Shown piece after piece: positions 28,244 to 53,961 of a DNA stretch of 64,000 nt. Made by a program: the position numbers and the translations under genes. This DNA is from Kiritimatiellia bacterium. Its GTDB lineage: Bacteria; Verrucomicrobiota; Kiritimatiellia; RFP12; UBA1067. The notes beneath the pieces are model-generated. The model was given only the letters and a program-made list of their open reading frames with translations, was not told where the DNA came from and ran no database searches. Every line of letters starts with the position of its first letter. Position 1 is the stretch's first letter. The DNA is taken from contig JBMNFY010000008.1 of the NCBI GenBank assembly GCA_050949565.1, forward strand, positions 192,001 through 256,000. The letters run 5' to 3'.

Positions 28244-28398
28244 GGCGTAAAGTGTAGCGGTCAATCCCCGCCGCCGCAAGTGCGCAAAAAAGTCTGCGCA
28301 AAAAAATGAAATTTGTGATTGACTTTAGGACACAAAAGAGCGAAAAGCGAGTCGAGTGCCGGAATGACATTTACCATAGAACGAAAGAGACGGTCGAC

Positions 28399-28596
28399 AT
28401 GAATACAAGGAAGACGTTTACTGCCGTTTTCTCTGCTGCTGCCGTATTTATTTCCGCAGCCGTCATCGTACGCCTGCCAGCCGCCGAGCCCGGGCAGGCG
28501 GACAGGTTGCCCTCTGTCGCAGGGCCGGATGCGTTGCGGCGGGAGCTTTGGCTTGTGCAGGCCGAAGCGCTCCCTGCCGGAGAAATAGGGTCGTAG
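28399..28596 (+). pseudogene. N-terminal fragment of a secreted protein truncated by miniature element A
   Basis: Signal peptide MNTRKTFTAVFSAAAVFISAAVIVRL; the frame stops inside the inverted repeat. Confidence 0.55.
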
Positions 28597-28836
28597 TTTG
28601 ACATTAGACATTCAAGGCGGAGAAATAGGGTCGTAGTTTGACATTAGACATTCAAGGGGTGCAAAGCGTTTTCGCGGTGTGGTAACGTGTTGCCGTGGCA
28701 AGGCAACTGAGGCACCTCCGAAGGGATGATGGTGCGGTTGAAAACCGACAACGCCTTGCACCGGTCGACCGTGCGCGTATCAAGGACTGCTGGGGAAACG
28801 AAATGTCTAATGTCAAACTACGACCCCAACAGACGC
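28579..28836 (+). mobile_element. Miniature element A (internally deleted copy of the Y1/HUH element), left end duplicated as 2 x 40 bp
   Basis: IR gggtcgtagtttgacattagacatt twice; 5' of the nuclease gene (MARQLRH) joined to its 3' end; right IR ends at 28827. Confidence 0.9.
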
Positions 28837-29272
28837 AACTGTCATACCGCCATACAAAACGGTTAAAATTGCGAAACGAAATTCCTTGGATCTTGGCGCG
28901 ACATATGATTTTAGCTTCATGAATGTAAAAACCACTGGCGAGGCGTTCGTCCATATCAATGTACTCCACAACAATTTCCCGGTGAACCCAAATGTGATGA
29001 ACGGAACTTTTGCTTTGCCTGTCACGCCCAGTGAAATACGGTTACACTGCATTCTAACGGCTGTCCATGAGGGTTGCCACATGTTCGGTCTGGTGGCTAA
29101 TAACAATGTGCTGGGGGGCGACGCGGATAAACACAACCCCGTCCCGAACGGCACCCGCGTGATGGACGACGGCAAGATCGTACCCTACGAGATCCGGTTC
29201 GGGCGGGCCGGCCCTTGGTGGTGGCTCCCATTGAACGGCGCATACCTGAAATTCGTGTTCCCGAAGGAGTGA
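28829..29272 (+). pseudogene. Orphan C-terminal HExxH zinc-metallopeptidase-like fragment (toxin tip candidate)
   Basis: Frame open from the right IR with no RBS or signal peptide; TAVHEGCHMFGL motif with a downstream His and VM; AT-richer. Confidence 0.65.
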
Positions 29273-29294
29273 GAGATACGTGAAAGGAGAACTC

Positions 29295-30218
29295 ATGAAA
29301 AAGACAACATGGCTACTGTCGTTTCTCATTTCGCTGGCTACGGCTGGCGCACAAGCGCAACAGACCAACCGCTTATATTATTCTTCAAAACTCGGCCTCT
29401 GGGTCGGCATTGGGGGCGAGGAGAGAAAGCCCACGGAGGAGGAGCGTTTCAGAAGGAAAATGCGGAAAGCGCTCCCGTATCAAACCGAGGTTCCGGAGAT
29501 TTTCCGTTACAGTACGCTTGGGCAACTCACAAAGGTGAGCGATCACATTGCCGTAGGAAAGGTTATTTCCGTCAAGTGGATCGAAAACTCATATTCAGAA
29601 AACGTCTCGATCACCTTGAAGCTTGAAGACGTGCTGCTGGGCGACGTGTCTTCCCGAAAGATTAAGGTCACGGGTGGCTGGCCGGAAGACGCTGACTACA
29701 AAAAGGATCTGGAAGTCGGCAAACCTTTCTTGTGGGCTTGGAAGCCGTGCCCCAAGCGTGGCGACCGGCTCCTCATGTATATTTTTGACAGGTCCTCGAT
29801 CGGGAATTACTGGGATTCGCGCAAATTCCATTCCCGAAAAGAGGTGCGCGCTAAAACCGGATTGCTTCACTTCATCTGCGGAAATATGGGCACCAGAGTC
29901 CTGGACACACCGGAGGACACAACGAACTATCTCAATGCCGCCAAGGCATACATACGGGAGTTGAGAGGTGCAAAACGCGACGAGGAGAGCTACTACTCGC
30001 TGCTCTGCACTCTGGTTCGCTCCCCCGTGCAACGCATCCGCGAGGATGCGCGGAGCGACCTGATGTTCTTTATCGAATACTGCCCGTCATTCGACGCCCG
30101 GAGGGTGCTTGCCGATGACAACATCGATGAGGCGATCCAATACTGGGTCGAGCATGACGTGCTCCCGCCGCGCGAAAAACAACAGTCCGATACGCAAAAT
30201 GAAACCAATCATGAATAG
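29295..30218 (+). CDS. Exported hypothetical protein, paralogue 1 (immunity candidate)
   Basis: RBS aaggag; signal peptide; shared motifs LPY, TLGQLTK, GDRLL, RIREDARSDL, CPSFD, NIDE. Confidence 0.8.
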   Translation: MKKTTWLLSFLISLATAGAQAQQTNRLYYSSKLGLWVGIGGEERKPTEEERFRRKMRKALPYQTEVPEIFRYSTLGQLTKVSDHIAVGKVISVKWIENSYSENVSITLKLEDVLLGDVSSRKIKVTGGWPEDADYKKDLEVGKPFLWAWKPCPKRGDRLLMYIFDRSSIGNYWDSRKFHSRKEVRAKTGLLHFICGNMGTRVLDTPEDTTNYLNAAKAYIRELRGAKRDEESYYSLLCTLVRSPVQRIREDARSDLMFFIEYCPSFDARRVLADDNIDEAIQYWVEHDVLPPREKQQSDTQNETNHE

Positions 30219-31071
30219 ACGGTTGTTTTTCGTTGGCCTGTTATTGATGTCATTTCAAGCTAAGGCAGAGAGAGCGGATGTCGTGGTAAGATTGCCGCCT
30301 GAGTTGGATATGCCAGTGCCCAAGCCGTTATCGCCGGAAGAGAGGGAACAAAAAGAGATTCGGGAACGCATAAACAAGAAATTGCCCTATAACAATGACG
30401 CAAGTGGTTCGTTAGGAACCCTCGGGCAATTGACAAAATTATGCGACTGGGTGTTTGTCGGGAAGGTTGTCGATGCCAAAGGCAACAAAGTAGCGGCAGG
30501 AGCTAAGGAAGAGTTTCTTGGCGAGGTCAGCGTGACGCTCAACATTGAAACCAACCTGTTCGGACAAACGCGGAACAAACGTATTGTTGTGACACCAAAC
30601 TGGTGGGAAACGTGGCGTGTCCCGAAGGCGGGTGACCGTATGCTTGTTTTTCTTGCGAAAGAACGCTACGACGAGTATGTTTTCGATGTGATAAAATTCG
30701 ATTTTGACAAGGCCAGGTTCAAAGGAGAAACGAATAAAGGCCCCATCGTTGTCCGTGAGTGCAGGGGAATGATCGGTCTTGGCAGTGCGGAAACCGAAAG
30801 GATCTTTGTTGCGGCCACAGAGGGGTATCTTCAAGTTCTGAGGCGGGAAAGCCGTGACGCCGAGCGCTATTATGCACTTCTTCGTCAACTGGTTCTTTCC
30901 CCTGAGTGCCGTATCAAGGAAGACGCGAGAAGCGACCTGTTAAAAATCCTGCGGAGTTGCCCCTCTTTCGATTTGGACCGCGTCCTCGCCGACGAAAACA
31001 TCGACGAGGGCATCAAGGATTATGTGCGTCTGTATCTGAAGCCGCAGCAAGAGAAAAAGAAAACACCGTGA
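30211..31071 (+). CDS. Exported hypothetical protein, paralogue 2 (immunity candidate)
   Basis: Signal peptide MNRRLFFVGLLLMSFQAKA; LPY, TLGQLTK, GDRML, RIKEDARSDL, CPSFDLDRVLADENIDE. Confidence 0.8.
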   Translation: MNRRLFFVGLLLMSFQAKAERADVVVRLPPELDMPVPKPLSPEEREQKEIRERINKKLPYNNDASGSLGTLGQLTKLCDWVFVGKVVDAKGNKVAAGAKEEFLGEVSVTLNIETNLFGQTRNKRIVVTPNWWETWRVPKAGDRMLVFLAKERYDEYVFDVIKFDFDKARFKGETNKGPIVVRECRGMIGLGSAETERIFVAATEGYLQVLRRESRDAERYYALLRQLVLSPECRIKEDARSDLLKILRSCPSFDLDRVLADENIDEGIKDYVRLYLKPQQEKKKTP

Positions 31072-31130
31072 GAGGAGGCGGCTCCCAAGGAGTAAACTAA
31101 AATCGTTTGCTTGCCATAAAGGAGGTCGGA

Positions 31131-32021
31131 ATGAAAAAGAAAATCGTGTTTATTGCTCTCGCGTGGTCGGTCTTGGTCGCGTGCCGGAGTTGGCCCGAAG
31201 AGGAGGACGTTGTAATCAAACTTCCCGAGGAACTGATGCCACCCCCAAAACCTCTGTCTGAAGCAGAGAAGCAGCGCGAAGACAAAGAGATGGCCCATAG
31301 TGCATTGGTCGCGCGGCTGAATCGGAAACTTCCCTACTACATGATCGCTGATGTCACATGCCAATTCTTTACGTTGGGGCAACTTGTAAAACTTTGCGAC
31401 TCTGTTTCAGTCGTAAACGTTGTTGCTGTTGAAGATGCCGATTCAAAATCGGCAACCAAACGGCTGGTGCCCAGGATCAAAGTAACGGTCAATGCGGAAA
31501 CCAACCTGCTGGGGCATTTGGATCGGGGTGATTTGTCGCTGATTGTCCAATGGTGGGATCGAAAACGGCTCCCGCAGAAAGGGGACAGGTGGCTTGTCTT
31601 CATCACGAGCGAGGATCATAGAGTCAACATGCTTGATGCGATGAAATGGGGTTTCGACAAAACCAAAGCGCGGGGGGAAGTCAAGGAGGCCAAGTTCGTT
31701 CTCGGGCAGAGTCGAGGCGCGATCGACCTTCCTGATGTTAAAGCAGAGAGGGAACTCCTCACAGCGACAATGGGGTATTTACAGAATCTGCGGCAACAGA
31801 AGCGGGATGCGGAAAAATACTATGCCCATCTGCGCGAACTAGTCCTTTCGCTTGATCAGCGAATCAAAGACGATGCAACAATTGATATGTTAAATTTTTT
31901 AAAAAGTTGCCCCTCCTTTGACCTGAACCGCGTGCTCGGCGACACGAACATCGATGAGAGTGTCAAAGACTACGTCAGGCTCATCCTCATGCCATCCCGC
32001 CAGCATCAGGAGGAGCCATGA
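31131..32021 (+). CDS. Exported (possibly lipo-) protein, paralogue 3 (immunity candidate)
   Basis: RBS aggagg; LVAC lipobox-like motif; LPY, TLGQLVK, GDRWL, RIKDDA, CPSFDLNRVLGDTNIDE. Confidence 0.8.
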   Translation: MKKKIVFIALAWSVLVACRSWPEEEDVVIKLPEELMPPPKPLSEAEKQREDKEMAHSALVARLNRKLPYYMIADVTCQFFTLGQLVKLCDSVSVVNVVAVEDADSKSATKRLVPRIKVTVNAETNLLGHLDRGDLSLIVQWWDRKRLPQKGDRWLVFITSEDHRVNMLDAMKWGFDKTKARGEVKEAKFVLGQSRGAIDLPDVKAERELLTATMGYLQNLRQQKRDAEKYYAHLRELVLSLDQRIKDDATIDMLNFLKSCPSFDLNRVLGDTNIDESVKDYVRLILMPSRQHQEEP

Positions 32022-32044
32022 TCTCTGATTGTAGAGGAAACTTC

Positions 32045-32110
32045 ATGAAAAAAAGTGTGTTGAAAACTATTACCGCAACGTTGACTGGGAGAAATGGGGT
32101 CGTAGTTTGA
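32045..32110 (+). pseudogene. Start of a fourth gene truncated by miniature element B
   Basis: RBS gagga then MKKSVLKTITATL, reading into the IR. Confidence 0.45.
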
Positions 32111-32384
32111 CATTAGACATTCAAGTGGGAGAAATGGGGTCGTAGTTTGACATTAGACATTCAAGTGGGAGAAATGGGGTCGTAGTTTGACATTAGACAT
32201 TCAAGGGTTGTTCAGCGTTTTCGCGGTGTGGTCATGTGTTGCCGTGGCAAGGCAACTGAGGCACCTCCGAAGGGATGGTGGTGCGGTTGAAAACCGACAA
32301 CGCCTTGCACCGGTCGACCGTGTACGTATCAAGGCTACTGGGGAAACGAAAAGTCTAATGTCAAACTACGACCCCGACAGACGC
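32086..32384 (+). mobile_element. Miniature element B, left end triplicated as 3 x 40 bp
   Basis: tgggagaaatggggtcgtagtttgacattagacattcaag at 32086, 32126 and 32166; body closely similar to element A; right IR ends at 32375. Confidence 0.9.
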
Positions 32385-32600
32385 CAACAGACGTATTTAA
32401 CTCAGAACACTGAACGTCGAACTCTGAACTCTGAAGGTGAAAACTCCTTGCCTATAACTTACAGCGATCAAGGTTATCTTCATTTAAATGCCAGTGTGAA
32501 GCGTGGGCGGCGGGCTAACCAATTACCCGAGATAGAAGTTGAACGTTGAGCGCTGGGCGTTCTTTTGTTACGGTACCCCAAACGCTTTTCACAGGAGAAG

Positions 32601-49287: not shown

Positions 49288-50140
49288 GTTCCTTCTTTTC
49301 CGGCAGCGACCAGCCCTCTATCACCGCTGTCGCCTTCAGGGCATCCAGATGCGCGTCTAACGTCTCCTGGTACGCCCGCTCGAACAGCACGGTCTTGAGG
49401 TCTGCCGCAATTTCATCGTGCGACACTTGACGCGGCTCCTCTTTGTGCAGCAACCTAAAGAGATGCAGCGTCTGTATGTCGAGATCAATCACATCACTGA
49501 TTGCGCCCGGCTCCAGCGCGAACAGAGCCTCCTCCACCGCTTCAGGCAACTCGCCACGCCTCACCGTGCTAAAGTCAAAATATCCGAGGTCACGCTCTAC
49601 CGTGTCTGAGTAAGCTCTCACCGCCTCAAACCACCCGATTTGGCCCTGTTCGATTTCAGACTTGATGCGCAACAACTCCAAAAACTCATTCGCTCTCGTG
49701 GCGGGGGTGACCAAACGGCAGATATGGCTGAGTTGTACGCCTTCGCCGAGCATCAAGGAACTGGCGTTCTCCGTGTAAAACGCGCGCACCTCCTCATCAC
49801 TCGGCGGCTTCACACGCTTGCGCATTTCCCGCAGTAGCCTGCGCTGCTGCAGAGCGACGCGCGCTTCTTCCGCCCGTTGCTCTTCAGGAAAAGCCGAATA
49901 GTCTGCCGACTCCAGTTCCTTGCGCACCCGCTCGTCGTTCGGCACAGGCTGAGTCTTGATCGCCTCATTCCGCAGCAGCACCCCCTCGACCAGATTCTCC
50001 ACCGCCCAATCACGAAGTTGCTCCTCACTCGGCTCGCCGCCGTGCTTCTGCACGTACTCGACATACGCCGGGCGCAGCGCATCAATCTCGGACAGAATCT
50101 TTTGCTCTGTGATCTCTACCCCGTCTACTTTTACAGCCAT
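49271..50140 (-). CDS. PpiC/parvulin-type peptidyl-prolyl isomerase (SurA/PrsA-like)
   Basis: VKVDGVEIT, EEVRAFY, LSHI, YSD...DLG, ALFALEPGAISDVI, LHLFRL. Confidence 0.85.
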   Translation of the reverse strand: MAVKVDGVEITEQKILSEIDALRPAYVEYVQKHGGEPSEEQLRDWAVENLVEGVLLRNEAIKTQPVPNDERVRKELESADYSAFPEEQRAEEARVALQQRRLLREMRKRVKPPSDEEVRAFYTENASSLMLGEGVQLSHICRLVTPATRANEFLELLRIKSEIEQGQIGWFEAVRAYSDTVERDLGYFDFSTVRRGELPEAVEEALFALEPGAISDVIDLDIQTLHLFRLLHKEEPRQVSHDEIAADLKTVLFERAYQETLDAHLDALKATAVIEGWSLPEKKEPTAAQ

Positions 50141-50457
50141 CTTACCATCCCCATTTCAACCGAACCGCTCCGCGCACACCACCGCGCGCCCAAACAAATG
50201 TGGCGAGTTTCTCACACCCTTTACTCCCGCGTCAAGCGCCGTTCGCCTCCGATTCGTCGATTCGCCGTAATCGGTTAGTGACAGGAAGTATGTGAGTTTA
50301 GTGCGTGGTTGGTGCTCATTTCGGCACTCACAAGTCAGGTGAAAAGATTTGGAGACAAGCTATAACCATCACAAGTCGAAAATTCTGAAGTTATCAACAC
50401 GGTTTCACCTTGGTTTTCGGGGGTACGAAGTCAGTGTTGGTCTTGTACACGAGTACT

Positions 50458-51598
50458 GGGGTCGTAGTTTGACATTAGACATTCGAGAGTTGCGGAGCGT
50501 TTTCTCGATGTGGTAATGTATCGCCATGGCAAGACAACTGAGGCACCACTATGCGGGGGGATGGTATCACATCACCAGCCGGGGCATGGGGCGGATGGCG
50601 ATCTTTATCGATGACCGCGACCGCGAGCACTTCGTGGAGTTGCTGTCCGAGATGGTCGAGCGTTACGGGGTCGTGCTACACGCCTACGTGCTGATGGATA
50701 ATCACTACCATCTGCTGATCGAGACACCTACCGCTAATGCGAGCCGGGCACTGCAATGGCTGAACCTGAGCCACAGCATGTGGTTCAAAACTCGGCATGG
50801 CCACGCGGGGTCTGTTTTTCAGGCGCGTTTCAAGAGCATCCCCGTCGAGGATGCTGGCTCGTGGGCGCTGACGTGCAGCGTGTACATCCACCTGAACCCC
50901 GTGCGGATCAAAGCGCTGGGGCTCGGCAAAGAGGATCGTGCGATGGAGAAGGCGGCACTCCCGCCTGAAGGGCCACCCAAAGAGCTGGTGCGCGCGCGGC
51001 TGGCCAAACTGCGGGGCTATCGGTGGAGTTCTTACCGAGCGTACGCGGGTTATGCGCCGTCTCCGGAATGGCTGACCTGCGCGACGCTCTGGGAGCGTTG
51101 TTGTCCGGCGGCCGAAGACCCAAAAATGGAATACCGCCGGCATCTGGAGGACTATCTGCGACAGGGTGTCGGGGAGGACCTGTTCGCCAGAATCAGTGCT
51201 GCAGTCGCCATCGGCGGGGCGGCTTTCGTCGAAAACCTGCGCAAGAGAGTACCGAGGCGGGCGCGCGGCGAGACGAACGCGCGCGCATGGCGCAGGATGT
51301 TGCCGTTCGACGAGGTCGTGCGCGCGGTCGAGTCGGTCAAGGGCATGGGATGGGCTGACTTTGCTGAACGCAGGGGCGACTGGGGCCGTGACTTGGCTCT
51401 GTACATCGGGAGGATGCGGTGCGGACTGACGTTGAAGGAACTCGGAGCACAGGCTGGCGGGTTGAGCGTGCCCGCAGTTGCCAAGGCAGTCGAACGGATG
51501 GCGGCGCGGCTGAAAAACGACAAAGCCTTGCATCGGTCGGCGGCACACGTATTAAAGTTACTGGAAAAACGAAATGTCTAATGTCAAACTACGACCCC
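50458..51598 (+). mobile_element. Full-length IR-bounded Y1/HUH nuclease element
   Basis: Perfect 26-bp IR ggggtcgtagtttgacattagacatt (50458-50483) / aatgtctaatgtcaaactacgacccc (51573-51598); no target-site duplication. Confidence 0.92.
50526..51581 (+). CDS. Y1/HUH transposase-like (RAYT/IS200-fold) nuclease with C-terminal HTH
   Basis: WYHITSRG, HAYVLMDNHYHLL (HUH), VFQARFKS, YIHLNPVR, YRWSSY; C-terminal RDLALY...LTLKELG HTH; stop codon lies inside the right IR. Confidence 0.93.
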   Translation: MARQLRHHYAGGWYHITSRGMGRMAIFIDDRDREHFVELLSEMVERYGVVLHAYVLMDNHYHLLIETPTANASRALQWLNLSHSMWFKTRHGHAGSVFQARFKSIPVEDAGSWALTCSVYIHLNPVRIKALGLGKEDRAMEKAALPPEGPPKELVRARLAKLRGYRWSSYRAYAGYAPSPEWLTCATLWERCCPAAEDPKMEYRRHLEDYLRQGVGEDLFARISAAVAIGGAAFVENLRKRVPRRARGETNARAWRRMLPFDEVVRAVESVKGMGWADFAERRGDWGRDLALYIGRMRCGLTLKELGAQAGGLSVPAVAKAVERMAARLKNDKALHRSAAHVLKLLEKRNV

Positions 51599-51620
51599 GC
51601 ACTGCTTCTAGGAGGAGTTC

Positions 51621-52583
51621 ATGATGCGCGGCAAAGACATATTCTTTCTGTGTGGCATTATCATTACGGTTGCGATGATCGTGCTGATTTTCCGAAACGG
51701 AACCAATGATCCGCTTGCACCGGGAATGCCTTCCTCTGAACGACGGGCGACAAACGTTGCCAAGGCACCCCAACAAGACGCTGTCCCAATTTCAGAAAAG
51801 GCCGTGTTTGTCCTCACACAGCAGACAGAGATTGCGCCTCCCAACACTGTAGAGCCGAGTGACGAATCGGTGAAATCTGAAACGATTTTAATCAAGGTGG
51901 CAGGCCGCGAATTTCCATTGCTGTTTGAAGATCCAGATATATCCGATACCCTAAAGAGTGTGATAGGCCGTGATATTACCCTGAATCTCGCTCATTTTAA
52001 GCATGTCACTCTAAGGGATGTCTCTGGCGAACGCTCGGATTCTGAACACAGATCATCACTGAAGGCGACCCATCTTTTGGATGAAGGGTGTCAGGAGCGT
52101 CTGTTCCCAGAAGTGTTCGAGAATAATTTCGGAGGTGTCATCGTGAGTAATTCGACACCCCATATTGTTGTTTGCAAAAAGTTGATTGAAGAGTACGAGC
52201 GAGCGCTAGATTACAAAACACGGCATCCTGTCATGTTTAAGCGCTTGGAAGAATTTCTTGCCCGACTGCGAAGCGCTCAGTTTCTCAAAACAATCGAGGA
52301 CAATCCCGAAAAAGCACAAAATGCTTTCTTCTTGGAAAGAGGTCCTAACGAAGGTGTTGACTACTCGCAACAACTCTCCGGACTATTGAGAAATGCCACG
52401 ATACGAGACCCCAGCATTCTTGATTTTTATCCATCAGATAACTACGGCATAAAGCAAGGAACGGTCTGTATGCCGTTACTGATATGGCCAGATGACATGA
52501 ACAGTGAACCTGTCTTGAAAGGGATTCCCTTGTTTATCTACATCGATGGAGAATGGCGCATATACGTGCCGCGTTTGCTTTGA
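51621..52583 (+). CDS. AT-richer hypothetical protein with N-terminal membrane anchor (cargo)
   Basis: RBS aggagg; hydrophobic IFFLCGIIITVAMIVLIF; fills nearly all the space between the full element and miniature element C. Confidence 0.8.
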   Translation: MMRGKDIFFLCGIIITVAMIVLIFRNGTNDPLAPGMPSSERRATNVAKAPQQDAVPISEKAVFVLTQQTEIAPPNTVEPSDESVKSETILIKVAGREFPLLFEDPDISDTLKSVIGRDITLNLAHFKHVTLRDVSGERSDSEHRSSLKATHLLDEGCQERLFPEVFENNFGGVIVSNSTPHIVVCKKLIEEYERALDYKTRHPVMFKRLEEFLARLRSAQFLKTIEDNPEKAQNAFFLERGPNEGVDYSQQLSGLLRNATIRDPSILDFYPSDNYGIKQGTVCMPLLIWPDDMNSEPVLKGIPLFIYIDGEWRIYVPRLL

Positions 52584-52621
52584 ATAGTGAGTTGTGCGGT
52601 CGTGTGTCTCCAGAGAGTAGT

Positions 52622-52875
52622 GGGGTCGTAGTTTGACATTAGACATTCGAGAGTTGCGGAGCGTTTTTGTGGTATGGTAATGCATCGTCATGGCAAGGCA
52701 ACTGAGGCACCACCGAAAGGATGGCGGCGTGTCTGGAAAAACGAAATGTCTAATGAGGGTCTTGCAAAACCCCTTGCTTGCAGGTGTGGCACGGGCATCT
52801 TGCCCGTGTCTCATGGGCGGGACGCCCATGCCACGAGGGGTTTTGCAAGAGCCTCTAATGTCAAACTACGACCCC
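52622..52875 (+). mobile_element. Miniature element C, right IR interrupted by the 101-bp MITE
   Basis: Left IR and adjacent bases identical to the full element; same internal deletion junction as A and B plus a second deletion. Confidence 0.9.
52755..52855. mobile_element. 101-bp REP-carrying MITE, copy 3, with TAAT target-site duplication
   Basis: 20-bp TIR gagggtcttgcaaaacccct / aggggttttgcaagagcctc (1 mismatch); TAAT at 52751-54 and 52856-59; removal restores the host IR. Confidence 0.92.
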
Positions 52876-53193
52876 CACTGCTTGGTCGATCGCGGCACTC
52901 TTGGCCTTCTTGCTCTTCAGTTTTGAATAGGCGCGCCGCTTCGCGCCGACGTATTCCATCGTGGCTTTCCGTGACATCTCGTTTCTCATGCGAGCCGATT
53001 CTAGCACGGTGTCCAGTATTTGACGAATGCGCTTGATTTCCGGACACCGCGATTTTGGCTACGGTGTCCATGACTATGACATACCGCGCGCAATTCCCTT
53101 CTCTCGATGATCGTTTGACAAAACCGGCACCGGTGCGTTACCCTTCTTTCTCAATTTCACTGTATTCTGTATCTGTAAAGCAAAGGACATCGT

Positions 53194-53961
53194 ATGAACA
53201 TCATTATTTGCCCGACCGCCGAAGCGGCCAGCCTGCGGGCTGCTGATATGATTACTGAAGCCGTGCGCAAACGCCCTGAGACCGTGCTCGGCCTCGCCAC
53301 CGGCAGCACGCCCACGCTCCTTTACAAGGCGCTGATCCAAGCCCACCGTGACGGACTCGACTTCAGCCGGGTGCGCACCTTCAACCTCGATGAGTACCAC
53401 GGGCTCGCCCCCGACCATCCGCAATCCTACCGCCGGTTCATGGAAGAACAACTCTTCAACCACCTGAATCTGGATCTGGCCAACACGCATGTGCCCGATG
53501 GCTTGGCAAAGGATGTTGCGGCGCACTGCGCGGCGTATGAGGCGGAGATCAAAGCAGCCGGCGGCATCGACATCCAGGTGCTCGGCATCGGCTCCAACGG
53601 CCACATCGGCTTCAACGAGCCCGCCTCTTCGCTGGTCTCGCGCACTCGGCTTGTGGCGCTTACCCAGCAGACCATCAGCGACAACGCGCGCTTTTTCGAT
53701 GCAGCCGACGAAGTGCCGCGCCACGCCATTTCGATGGGCATCGGTACGATCCTCGAAGCCAAGCGCTGCATCATGCTCTGCTTCGGCGAACACAAGGCCA
53801 AGGCCGTGCGCGCCGCGATCGAAGGCGGCGTCTCGCAGTTCACGCCGGCCTCGGCGTTGCAGATGCACCCTGACACCACGGTCTTCCTGGACGAGGCCGC
53901 AGCGGCCGATCTCGAGTTGAAAGAGTACTATCGCTGGAGCGCTGCCAACCAGCCAGCTTGA
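53194..53961 (+). CDS. nagB: Glucosamine-6-phosphate deaminase
   Basis: LGLATGSTP, TFNLDEY, HPQSY, LGIGSNGHIGFNEP, PASALQMHP. Confidence 0.97.
   Translation: MNIIICPTAEAASLRAADMITEAVRKRPETVLGLATGSTPTLLYKALIQAHRDGLDFSRVRTFNLDEYHGLAPDHPQSYRRFMEEQLFNHLNLDLANTHVPDGLAKDVAAHCAAYEAEIKAAGGIDIQVLGIGSNGHIGFNEPASSLVSRTRLVALTQQTISDNARFFDAADEVPRHAISMGIGTILEAKRCIMLCFGEHKAKAVRAAIEGGVSQFTPASALQMHPDTTVFLDEAAAADLELKEYYRWSAANQPA

What the first reader, a model, noticed from the sequence alone, without database searches (positions are those of the whole stretch)
50458..52875. IR-bounded Y1/HUH nuclease element with a miniature family that brackets cargo genes: candidate cassette-capture system
Seen: an HUH/Y1 nuclease gene with a C-terminal HTH is enclosed by perfect 26-bp inverted repeats with no target duplication. 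Three miniature copies (28.6, 32.1 and 52.6 kb) join the first codons (MARQLRH) to the 3' end at the same junction, and all point the same way. The full element and copy C enclose one AT-richer gene; copies A and B enclose a toxin-tip/immunity-like block. Known: IS200/IS605 TnpA uses subterminal hairpins and RAYTs use REP palindromes; neither classically uses long terminal IRs. Inference: a distinct HUH element class whose miniatures act as recombination or insertion sites for gene cassettes, giving an element-cargo-element layout.
Basis: partly seen in the sequence, partly recalled or inferred. Interest (0 to 1): 0.9.

Follow-up and report, generated by a model that had tools for sequence, protein, structure and literature searches.

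The report
TIRtron transposon with miniature copies
This is a member of an already named but never tested class of bacterial jumping genes (a tyrosine nuclease gene between inverted repeats), and its gene-less miniature copies mark the borders of DNA blocks that differ between closely related strains.

Summary
A 351-aa Y1/HUH nuclease gene lies between perfect 26-bp inverted repeats. Three co-oriented miniatures share one deletion junction. AT-richer genes lie between neighbouring copies.

The claim of a distinct HUH class does not hold. This is a TIRtron/TIRYT (Di Nocera 2013), which is TnpA_REP subclass 2.1 with a DnaA-domain-IV-like tail (Quentin 2018). This scan has noted TIRtrons in at least eight other genomes. 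In 55 of 70 scorable relatives from many phyla, inverted repeats with a GGGTC-type core flank the gene.

The cassette idea is partly supported. The closest relative lacks the whole A-to-B island, but that island is wider than the miniatures. Metagenome contigs of near-identical strains carry no cargo, or unrelated cargo, between the same elements. A related 6.1-Mb genome has two element-cargo-element pairs.

Two results point to homologous recombination between repeat copies rather than a dedicated capture reaction. Single miniatures are A-left/B-right mosaics. One cargo gene occurs elsewhere with no repeat beside it.

Partial end copies always keep one fixed border 8-10 nt outside the repeats. 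These borders are probably the nuclease cut sites.

Verdict: a new member of a known kind, of moderate interest.

The parts
50450..50457 (+). 8-nt outer head of the left end (CGAGTACT). It travels with the element.
   Evidence: It is conserved as CGAGTAGT at the unrelated G006 locus. It precedes every left-end copy of this subfamily, whatever lies upstream.
50458..50483 (+). Left terminal inverted repeat, 26 bp
50526..51581 (+). TIRYT gene: a Y1/HUH nuclease (residues 12-125) plus a DnaA-domain-IV-like HTH (residues about 256-348)
51573..51598 (-). Right terminal inverted repeat, 26 bp. It overlaps the stop codon.
51599..51607 (+). Short tail beyond the right repeat (GCACTGCTT). Its type varies between copies.
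51621..52583 (+). Cargo ORF, 320 aa, with an N-terminal membrane or signal segment and no family match. Other strains carry unrelated DNA here.
52614..52883 (+). Miniature C with its head and tail. It includes a nested 98-bp hairpin element at 52756-52853.
28579..28836 (+). Miniature A: two tandem 40-bp left-end units, body, right repeat and 9-nt tail AACAGACGC
28837..32087 (+). Cargo block. It holds a 3' fragment of a longer HExxH protein (28886-29272) and three paralogous ORFs of about 310 aa (29280-30218, 30109-31071, 31107-32021).
32088..32385 (+). Miniature B: three tandem left-end units, body, right repeat and tail GACAGACGC(C)
28282..32533 (.). The whole island, absent from the closest relative G002. 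It is wider than A-cargo-B.

Best explanation
The 1.15-kb unit is a TIRtron: a transposon-like element whose only gene encodes a TIRYT. A TIRYT is a RAYT-like single-strand-DNA tyrosine (HUH) nuclease fused to a DnaA-domain-IV-type DNA-binding domain.

Proposed working (inferred):
- The DNA-binding tail and the nuclease recognise the 26-bp terminal repeats.
- In single-stranded DNA the two repeats pair into a stem.
- The nuclease cuts in the unpaired tails 8-10 nt outside each repeat.

The roughly 200-bp miniatures are internal-deletion derivatives. They all descend from one ancestral deletion and depend on the single full-length gene in trans.

Neighbouring copies in one orientation are sister copies made locally. 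Once present, they are direct repeats of about 200 bp. The accessory DNA between them is then lost or swapped between strains, mainly by homologous recombination within the repeats. On this reading the elements do not actively capture the genes.

Shown: the element's identity, its family-wide repeats, one intact gene copy among many miniature, partial and solo-end copies, the fixed-border end copies, the strain-to-strain cargo differences, and the mosaic miniatures.

Inferred: the cut sites, mobilisation in trans, and recombination as the cause of cargo turnover.
For: Identity
- Y1_Tnp matches at E 1e-11. NCBIfam REP_Tyr_transpos scores 53.7 bits against 17.3 for IS200.
- The best fold match is the E. 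coli REP-associated transposase 4er8_A (E 2.3e-5). The tail superposes on DnaA domain IV at TM 0.85-0.86.
- The class is described in PMC3733652 and PMC6006769.

Family-wide repeats
- I examined 80 genome-contig loci. Nine had flanks too short and one gave no seed.
- Of the 70 scored, 63 had flanking inverted repeats with at least 14 identities, and 55 had a GGGTC-type core in both arms.
- The median repeat starts 75 nt before the ATG and ends 13 nt after the stop.

Census in this genome
- There is 1 intact gene, 1 intermediate deletion, and about a dozen miniatures with the same 90/1034 junction at 75-91% identity.
- The 26-mer has 39 hits at up to 4 mismatches.

Mobility
- G006 holds the element at 97% identity over 1149 bp at an unrelated locus, while genome flanks are 73-86% alike.
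- 14 of 41 relatives have a match.
- G304 has at least 5 full copies.

Ends
- At least 15 partial left-end copies all start 8 nt before the repeat.
- At least 6 partial right-end copies all stop 8-10 nt after it.
- Miniature A folds as one long hairpin (z -5.8) that leaves exactly these tails unpaired.

Cargo turnover
- G002 lacks the island.
- L154 and L145 carry a miniature but no cargo.
- L157 carries a different 1-kb ORF between A and B.
- L155 and L141 carry an ankyrin gene in place of the window's cargo. L144 and L143 carry further cargos.

Recombination
- The L154 and L145 miniatures are A-type up to nt 68 and B-type from nt 111. L157's B is b-left and a-right.
- A and B are each other's closest copies, at 93-95%.
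- In G304 the paired full elements are 97% alike.
Against: - I found no clean filled-versus-empty site for a single miniature, so transposition of miniatures is inferred and not seen.
- Element orientation shows no bias relative to GC skew: 6 loci the same, 7 opposite, 1 ambiguous. IS200/IS605-type single-strand transposons are known for such a bias (PMC5027513, abstract seen in the listing).
- The variants come from short-read metagenome contigs. Assemblers can mis-join at 200-bp repeats. The A/B switch in L154 and L145 lies in a 42-nt identical stretch, which is also where a graph collapse would fall. Only the ankyrin variant (L155, L141), the cargo-less variant (L154, L145) and the window-like form (L142, L146, L156) are seen in more than one contig.
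- Homologous recombination explains loss of cargo. It does not explain how unrelated cargo first came to lie between two copies.
- Cargo ORFs run the same way as the nuclease gene in all pairs seen. Plain recombination does not predict this.
Confidence: 0.6

Rival explanations
1. Active cassette capture. The TIRYT nuclease, or its miniatures, joins foreign gene blocks site-specifically at the element ends. It would build element-cargo-element arrays as integrons or rolling-circle HUH elements do.
For: - Cargo always begins just after the 8-10-nt right tail and ends just before the 8-nt left head. These are the same borders kept by the partial end copies.
- At least four unrelated cargos occupy the site after the full element, and at least two the A-B site.
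- Several cargos are about 1 kb (1015, 1015, 958 and 1048 bp).
- Cargo ORFs are co-oriented with the nuclease gene here and in G304.
- Two cargos start inside a gene: an Rhs core end in L143 and a 3' fragment of a longer protein in the window.
- An earlier scan note describes a cargo gene held between TIRYT ends in another genome (e1-5213445). That note is unchecked.
Against: - Any repeat-bounded exchange would show borders at the repeat ends, so the border match does not discriminate.
- The mosaic miniatures have interior switch points.
- The island missing from G002 is wider than the miniatures.
- The G006 element has no cargo or miniature within 9 kb.
- The cargo homologue in G037 has no repeat beside it.
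- I found no circular or excised forms, but only contigs could be examined.
Confidence: 0.17
2. A domesticated REPIN-RAYT-like system: one vertically inherited nuclease gene that maintains a population of hairpin repeats for the host, rather than a selfish transposon.
For: - The genome has a single intact gene and many gene-less hairpin-forming copies.
- The repeat carries a GTAG at positions 7-10.
- Clusters and tandem units of ends recall REP/BIME clusters.
- JGI names relatives 'REP element-mobilizing transposase RayT'.
Against: - The gene sits at different loci in G000 and G006, yet is 97% identical there.
- Its distribution is patchy: 14 of 41 relatives.
- G304 has several full copies.
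- Many homologues lie on 1-3-kb contigs, as multi-copy elements do.
- The score is below the NCBIfam RAYT cut-off (53.7 against 80).
- By my reading, the 26-mer is not itself a palindrome.
Confidence: 0.1
3. The arrays are integron cassettes. An integron integrase, not the Y1 nuclease, moves the blocks, and the miniatures serve as or sit in its recombination sites.
For: - Metagenome contig L149 has an integron integrase gene (TIGR02249, 393 bits, cut-off 265) ending 44 bp before miniature B.
- This genome has its own integron-like locus.
- The cargos are small, promoter-poor, co-oriented accessory genes.
Against: - The window has no integrase. The genome's only integrase above cut-off lies on another contig with no copies of this repeat near it.
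- Cargo ORFs end 2-40 nt before the left head, so there is no room for a separate recombination site.
- The repeats between ORFs at the genome's own integron-like locus are unlike these elements.
- In L149 the integrase may simply be one more cargo.
Confidence: 0.05
4. Passive co-occurrence. Miniatures merely accumulate in strain-variable, AT-rich intergenic DNA where insertions are tolerated, and they play no part in its turnover.
For: - Elements lie in low-GC patches at most loci.
- Miniatures specific to G002 sit 100-200 bp from the nearest conserved DNA.
Against: - Variant borders coincide with element ends at two sites and in several contigs.
- The mosaic miniatures show that the copies themselves recombine.
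Confidence: 0.08

Closest known systems
TIRtron / TIRYT (Di Nocera, De Gregorio and Rocco 2013, PMC3733652), equated with TnpA_REP subclass 2.1 (Quentin et al. 2018, PMC6006769)
   Same: - It is a RAYT-like Y1/HUH gene flanked by long terminal inverted repeats with a GGGG head.
- It has a C-terminal DnaA_C-type HTH.
- The repeat also occurs alone, in pairs and in clusters in the genome.
   Different: - The repeat head is GGGGTCGT, which fits 6 of 8 positions of the published GGGGWSAS.
- About a dozen copies are internal-deletion miniatures that keep the first codons and the 3' end of the gene.
- Partial end copies keep fixed outer borders.
- Cargo differs between strains at the same pair of elements.
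- I did not see the last three points in the passages I read. Both papers' supplements were closed and may bear on them.
REPIN-RAYT systems (Bertels and Rainey 2011, PMC3116915, seen in listing only) and E. coli TnpA_REP (PDB 4er8, PMC3479197, seen in listing only)
   Same: - It gives the best structural match for the nuclease domain.
- One gene accompanies many hairpin-forming, gene-less repeats.
   Different: - The repeats here are 26-bp arms that pair with each other, not self-palindromic REPs.
- The protein has an extra DNA-binding domain.
- The gene is not fixed in position or copy number.
IS200/IS605 transposons and their gene-less derivatives (recalled; mechanism as in PMC5027513, abstract seen in the listing)
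   Same: - It shares the Y1 HUH fold.
- There is no target duplication.
- The likely cut sites lie a few nt outside a DNA stem.
- There are miniature non-autonomous copies.
   Different: - The ends are terminal inverted repeats rather than two different subterminal hairpins.
- The protein is 351 aa with an HTH.
- The IS200 model scores 17.3 bits against a cut-off of 55.
- There is no orientation bias relative to GC skew.
Integron cassette arrays and other repeat-bounded gene modules (recalled)
   Same: Co-oriented small accessory genes are separated by hairpin-forming repeats, and the content differs between strains.
   Different: - No integrase lies at the locus.
- The separators are derivatives of a Y1 transposon.
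- The switch points seen lie inside the repeat bodies.

Membership tests
TIRtron / TIRYT | The gene encodes a RAYT-like Y1 nuclease with an HUH motif and a catalytic tyrosine. | tested here: met
   Pfam Y1_Tnp matches at E 1e-11. H60-Y61-H62 and Y120 are invariant in 29 sequences. The best fold match is 4er8_A.
TIRtron / TIRYT | The gene is flanked by long terminal inverted repeats rather than by REP hairpins. | tested here: met
   The arms are perfect 26-bp repeats lying 68 nt before the ATG and 17 nt past the stop. In relatives, 63 of 70 scored loci have such repeats.
TIRtron / TIRYT | The repeat head fits GGGGWSAS. The paper states this for 'some' TIRs. | tested here: inconclusive
   Here the head is GGGGTCGT, a 6 of 8 fit. 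In relatives, 29 of 63 left arms fit strictly and 55 of 63 have a GGGTC-type core in both arms.
TIRtron / TIRYT | The repeat also occurs as single, paired or grouped copies in the genome. | tested here: met
   The 26-mer has 39 hits at up to 4 mismatches. They include solo copies, tandem units and inverted pairs.
TnpA_REP subclass 2.1 (Quentin 2018) | A C-terminal extension related to Bac_DnaA_C, HTH_23 or HTH_28. | tested here: met
   Pfam alone finds nothing. A family profile matches DnaA domain IV at E 0.007. The fold matches at TM 0.85-0.86 and rmsd 1.7-1.9.
TnpA_REP subclass 2.1 (Quentin 2018) | Placement inside the subclass 2.1 clade of the published tree. | not tested
   The reference sequences are in supplements that were closed. 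I built no tree.
REPIN-RAYT | The flanking repeat is a GTAG-headed self-palindrome (REP). | tested here: not met
   The 26-mer contains GTAG, but its body is a direct GACATT-A-GACATT repeat and not a palindrome (read). The stem forms only between the two arms.
REPIN-RAYT | A single-copy gene, vertically inherited at a fixed locus. | tested here: not met
   The locus differs in G006. 14 of 41 relatives have a match. G304 has several copies.
IS200/IS605 | A TnpA of the IS200 family with subterminal hairpins and no terminal inverted repeats. | tested here: not met
   NF033573 scores 17.3 bits against a cut-off of 55. Terminal inverted repeats are present.
Integron | An integron integrase lies next to an array of cassettes, each ending in its own recombination site. 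| tested here: not met
   Neither the window nor its contig has an integrase. There is no room for a site between the cargo stop and the left head. One metagenome variant (L149) does carry an integrase beside miniature B.

The most novel reading that the evidence does not exclude
TIRYT elements are gene-module shufflers. The nuclease cuts single-stranded DNA 8-10 nt outside each repeat and can join a right end to foreign DNA and foreign DNA to a left end. Co-oriented elements and miniatures would then build exchangeable, polar arrays of roughly 1-kb accessory genes (toxin/immunity-like, ankyrin, TA-like). This would be an integron-like cassette system run by an HUH enzyme instead of a tyrosine recombinase.
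Probability: 0.17. Interest if true: 0.8.

Novelty: new member of a known kind. Interest (0 to 1): 0.5.

Why it matters
TIRYTs are very common. Only two papers in the searched library name them, and in what I read no activity has been shown.

This locus offers three things that an experiment can use:
- Natural partial copies that point to the exact ends and probable cut sites.
- A one-gene, many-miniature set-up suited to a trans-mobilisation test.
- Closely related strains whose accessory genes differ exactly between element copies.

If the nuclease takes part in that exchange, it would be a new route of gene-cassette flux. If not, the locus is a clear example of transposon relics acting as portable homology for island turnover.

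Tried and rejected
- Reads. Only Logan contigs were on offer. They break at the repeats and show no joint that skips the element, the miniature or the cargo. Contigs cannot show rare circles or excisions, so this is no evidence either way. Of the 24 listed runs, 16 hold at least half of the words of 49800-53200, and the 19 rows holding any part of it come from 13 studies. This shows only that the layout is widespread.
- Clean empty sites for single miniatures in G002 and G006. G002 contigs end near the repeats, or only one flank is conserved, so nothing was decided.
- Synteny of the A-B flanks in G001, G003 and G006. It is not kept, so these genomes are uninformative.
- Replication-strand bias. 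None was found.
- Pfam and NCBIfam on the window's cargo ORFs. No family matched. The 'toxin tip' label for 28886-29272 rests only on an HExxH-like motif and on its being the last 126 residues of longer hypothetical proteins. Those longer proteins have no Pfam match either.
- L153, which joins a right end to DNA from two other contigs and then to a left end, has stated coverage of only 1.36. I set it aside as a possible chimera.
- Subterminal hairpins inside the left end, seen by eye, are not kept in copy C. I dropped the idea.
- I built no tree against IS200 TnpA and the RAYT subclasses. Placement rests on model scores and fold ranking.
Full report
WHAT IS THERE

The coordinates are right. 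A perfect 26-bp inverted repeat sits at 50458-50483 and 51573-51598. It encloses one ORF (50526-51581, 351 aa). The window holds 11 copies of the 26-mer at up to 3 mismatches, where none is expected by chance.

Three miniatures lie at 28.6, 32.1 and 52.6 kb. Each joins about nt 90 of the element to about nt 1034, so each keeps the first codons and the 3' end of the gene. All point the same way.

- Miniatures A and B begin with two and three tandem 40-bp left-end units.
- Miniature C has a second internal deletion.
- Miniature C carries a nested 98-bp hairpin element with a 7-bp target duplication. That element is absent from the same miniature in other strains.

THE PROTEIN

- The N-terminal part matches Pfam Y1_Tnp (E 1e-11).
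- It scores 53.7 bits on NCBIfam's REP-associated tyrosine transposase model (cut-off 80) and 17.3 on the IS200 model (cut-off 55).
- HUH (H60-Y61-H62) and Y120 are invariant in 29 relatives that are 56-81% identical over the whole length.
- Pfam sees nothing in the tail. A family profile matches DnaA domain IV (E 0.007).
- An AlphaFold model (mean pLDDT 69.4; both domains mostly 75-93) gives 4er8_A, the E. coli REP-associated transposase, as its best match (E 2.3e-5). IS608, ISDra2 and IS200 transposases follow.
- The tail superposes on DnaA domain IV (3pvp_A TM 0.85; 1j1v_A TM 0.86).

IT IS A KNOWN CLASS

Di Nocera et al. 2013 (PMC3733652, passages read) named RAYT-like genes flanked by long terminal inverted repeats TIRYTs, and the units TIRtrons. 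They noted a GGGGWSAS head on some repeats. They also reported that the repeats occur as single, dimeric or grouped copies.

Quentin et al. 2018 (PMC6006769, passages and section 20 read) equated most TIRYTs with TnpA_REP subclass 2.1, whose members carry a DnaA_C/HTH tail.

Only these two papers in the library use the names. A search for RAYT/HUH/Y1 transposase together with 'gene cassette' found nothing on cassettes. This scan has already filed TIRtrons from at least eight other genomes. One of those notes describes a cargo gene between ends with tandem end repeats (e1-5213445).

FAMILY-WIDE TEST

- They occur in Kiritimatiellia, Lentisphaerae, Verrucomicrobia, Planctomycetota, Desulfobacterota, Nitrospirota, Acidobacteriota and others.
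- I examined the best 80 loci. Nine had flanks too short and one gave no seed.
- Of the 70 scored, 63 had flanking inverted repeats with at least 14 identities, and 55 had a GGGTC-type core in both arms. Of those 63, 29 fit the strict published head.
- The repeats start a median 75 nt before the ATG and end 13 nt after the stop.
- The inner part of the repeat changes along with the protein. This fits the idea that the repeat is the protein's site.

IN THIS GENOME

The genome is 4.66 Mb in 21 contigs. Earlier notes call it Kiritimatiellia.
- There is one intact gene, one intermediate deletion (contig C4), and about a dozen miniatures with the same junction at 75-91% identity to the full copy.
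- There are also solo and tandem ends. The 26-mer has 39 hits at up to 4 mismatches.
- A shared junction across diverged copies, also seen in G002 and G006, means one old deletion derivative spread.
- Within every cluster the copies are co-oriented.
- Orientation does not follow GC skew: 6 loci the same, 7 opposite, 1 ambiguous.
- A and B are each other's nearest copies (93-95%). The left ends of the full copy and of C are 89% alike.

MOBILITY

- In the congener G006 the element is 97% identical over 1149 bp but lies at an unrelated locus. Flanking genes of the two genomes are 73-86% alike.
- 14 of 41 relatives have a match.
- A 6.1-Mb single-contig relative (G304) has at least five full copies.
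- This behaviour is IS-like. It is not that of a domesticated RAYT.

THE TRUE ENDS

- Every left-end copy of the full/C subfamily is preceded by GAGTAGT-like letters, whatever lies upstream. Copies of the A/B subfamily are preceded by GGAGAAAT (variants AGGTAATA and CGGGAATA).
- Every right end carries an 8-10-nt tail of a few types.
- At least 15 partial left-end copies all start 8 nt before the repeat and stop at variable inner points, from 6 to 224 nt.
- At least 6 partial right-end copies all stop after the tail and start at variable inner points.
- Folded as single-stranded DNA, miniature A forms one long hairpin (-52 kcal/mol, z -5.8) that leaves exactly these tails unpaired.
- I infer that the nuclease cuts there, and that the partial copies are footprints of one correct cut joined to an arbitrary 3' end.

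THE CARGO QUESTION

The A-B site
- The closest relative, G002 (96-97% identity), joins window 28281 to 32534 with 12 bp between them, in two contigs. The whole island is therefore absent. The island reaches 305 bp left of A and 158 bp right of B.
- A metagenome scan with the miniature junction gave 17 contigs.
- L154 and L145 have a miniature but no cargo.
- L157 has A and B with an unrelated 1,015-bp segment that encodes a 321-aa secreted protein.
- L149 has an integron integrase gene ending 44 bp before B.

The site after the full element
- L142, L146 and L156 match the window.
- L155 and L141 carry an ankyrin-repeat gene instead, plus an extra miniature.
- L144 carries a 466-bp segment with an 86-aa membrane ORF.
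- L143 continues after C with an Rhs core end, a tip and a small lipoprotein, followed by another left end.

General features of the cargos
- They are unrelated to each other.
- Their GC content is 36-51%.
- They are co-oriented with the nuclease gene.
- They begin right after the right tail and end right before the left head.
- In G304, two pairs of full-length copies that are 97% alike enclose 3.07 kb and 1.11 kb of low-GC genes.

HOW THE TURNOVER HAPPENS

- The single miniatures of L154 and L145 are A-type up to nt 68 and B-type from nt 111. L157's B is b-type on the left and a-type on the right. Switches inside identical stretches are the mark of homologous recombination or gene conversion between copies.
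- The window's 320-aa cargo is found in only 2 of 301 genomes of the order. In G037 it has no repeat beside it.
- The G006 element has neither miniature nor cargo within 9 kb.
- So the elements clearly bound exchangeable blocks. The evidence favours portable homology over a dedicated capture reaction.
- Two features keep the active-capture reading alive at about one chance in six: the polarity of the cargo, and cargos that start inside genes.

CAVEATS

- The variants are short-read metagenome contigs, and repeats of 200 bp invite mis-joins.
- The A/B switch in L154 and L145 lies where a graph collapse would also fall.
- Only three forms are seen in more than one contig.
- Laid contigs of four runs showed no skipping joints, but contigs cannot show rare forms.
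- I found no clean filled/empty site for a lone miniature.
- I built no tree. The papers' supplements were closed.

VERDICT

The 'new class' reading is rejected. The 'brackets cargo' reading is partly upheld, with a more ordinary mechanism preferred. This is a new member of the TIRtron class. Its value is that it defines the class's ends and offers natural variants for experiment.

Noticed in passing
window 52756-52853: A 98-bp hairpin element is nested in miniature C, with a 7-bp target duplication (TCTAATG). It is absent from the same miniature in L155, L141, L144 and L143. G002 has more than 40 copies. Summed contig depth is about 3,600 in run X1.
   Followed up: partly
window 52967-53088: This stretch recurs at 94-99% identity at the start of four G002 contigs, and its contig depth in run X1 is 10-15 times that of its neighbours. 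It is probably another multi-copy sequence.
   Followed up: no
window 32396-32518: The DNA right of miniature B belongs to a dispersed repeat of about 173 bp with at least 20 copies in this genome. Intergenic DNA here is a mosaic of several repeat families.
   Followed up: no
G000 contig C17:745500-751415 (locus L158): This is an integron-like locus. It has an integron integrase (TIGR02249, 358.6 bits, cut-off 265), divergent low-GC ORFs and short repeats between them. No copies of the TIRYT repeat lie near it.
   Followed up: partly
L149:200-1531: A different integron integrase (393 bits) ends 44 bp before miniature B in one metagenome variant of the A-B site.
   Followed up: partly
window 28886-29272: This ORF equals the last 126 residues (75% identity) of longer hypothetical proteins (at least 455-498 aa) from Lentisphaerae-type metagenomes. 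It is therefore a 3' gene fragment cut at the miniature's right tail. It has an HExxH-like motif but no family match.
   Followed up: partly
L143:393-1440: The cargo after miniature C in one strain starts inside an Rhs core end (TIGR03696, E 8e-11). A short tip and a 146-aa lipoprotein-like ORF follow. This is an orphan toxin/immunity-like module.
   Followed up: partly
G000 contig C4:30386-31314 (L035:3887-4815): Between two element copies on contig C4 lie a DUF6036 nucleotidyltransferase ORF and a 135-aa partner. They look like a toxin-antitoxin-type pair.
   Followed up: no
G000 contig C17:1660315-1660845: A second, distant Y1 gene fragment or paralogue, 27.5% identical over 178 residues.
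   Followed up: no
window 52614 and loci L142, L146, L156, L147: The number of left-end units before miniature C varies in the population. Run X1 has a 14-nt insert, three contigs have an extra 58-bp unit, and L147 has a 16-nt unit.
   Followed up: partly
G304 (L164, L165): In this relative the 8-nt outer heads and tails are complementary, which makes a TIR of about 32 bp (GAGGCAAA/GGAGGCAGA heads). In the window's subfamily they are not complementary.
   Followed up: no
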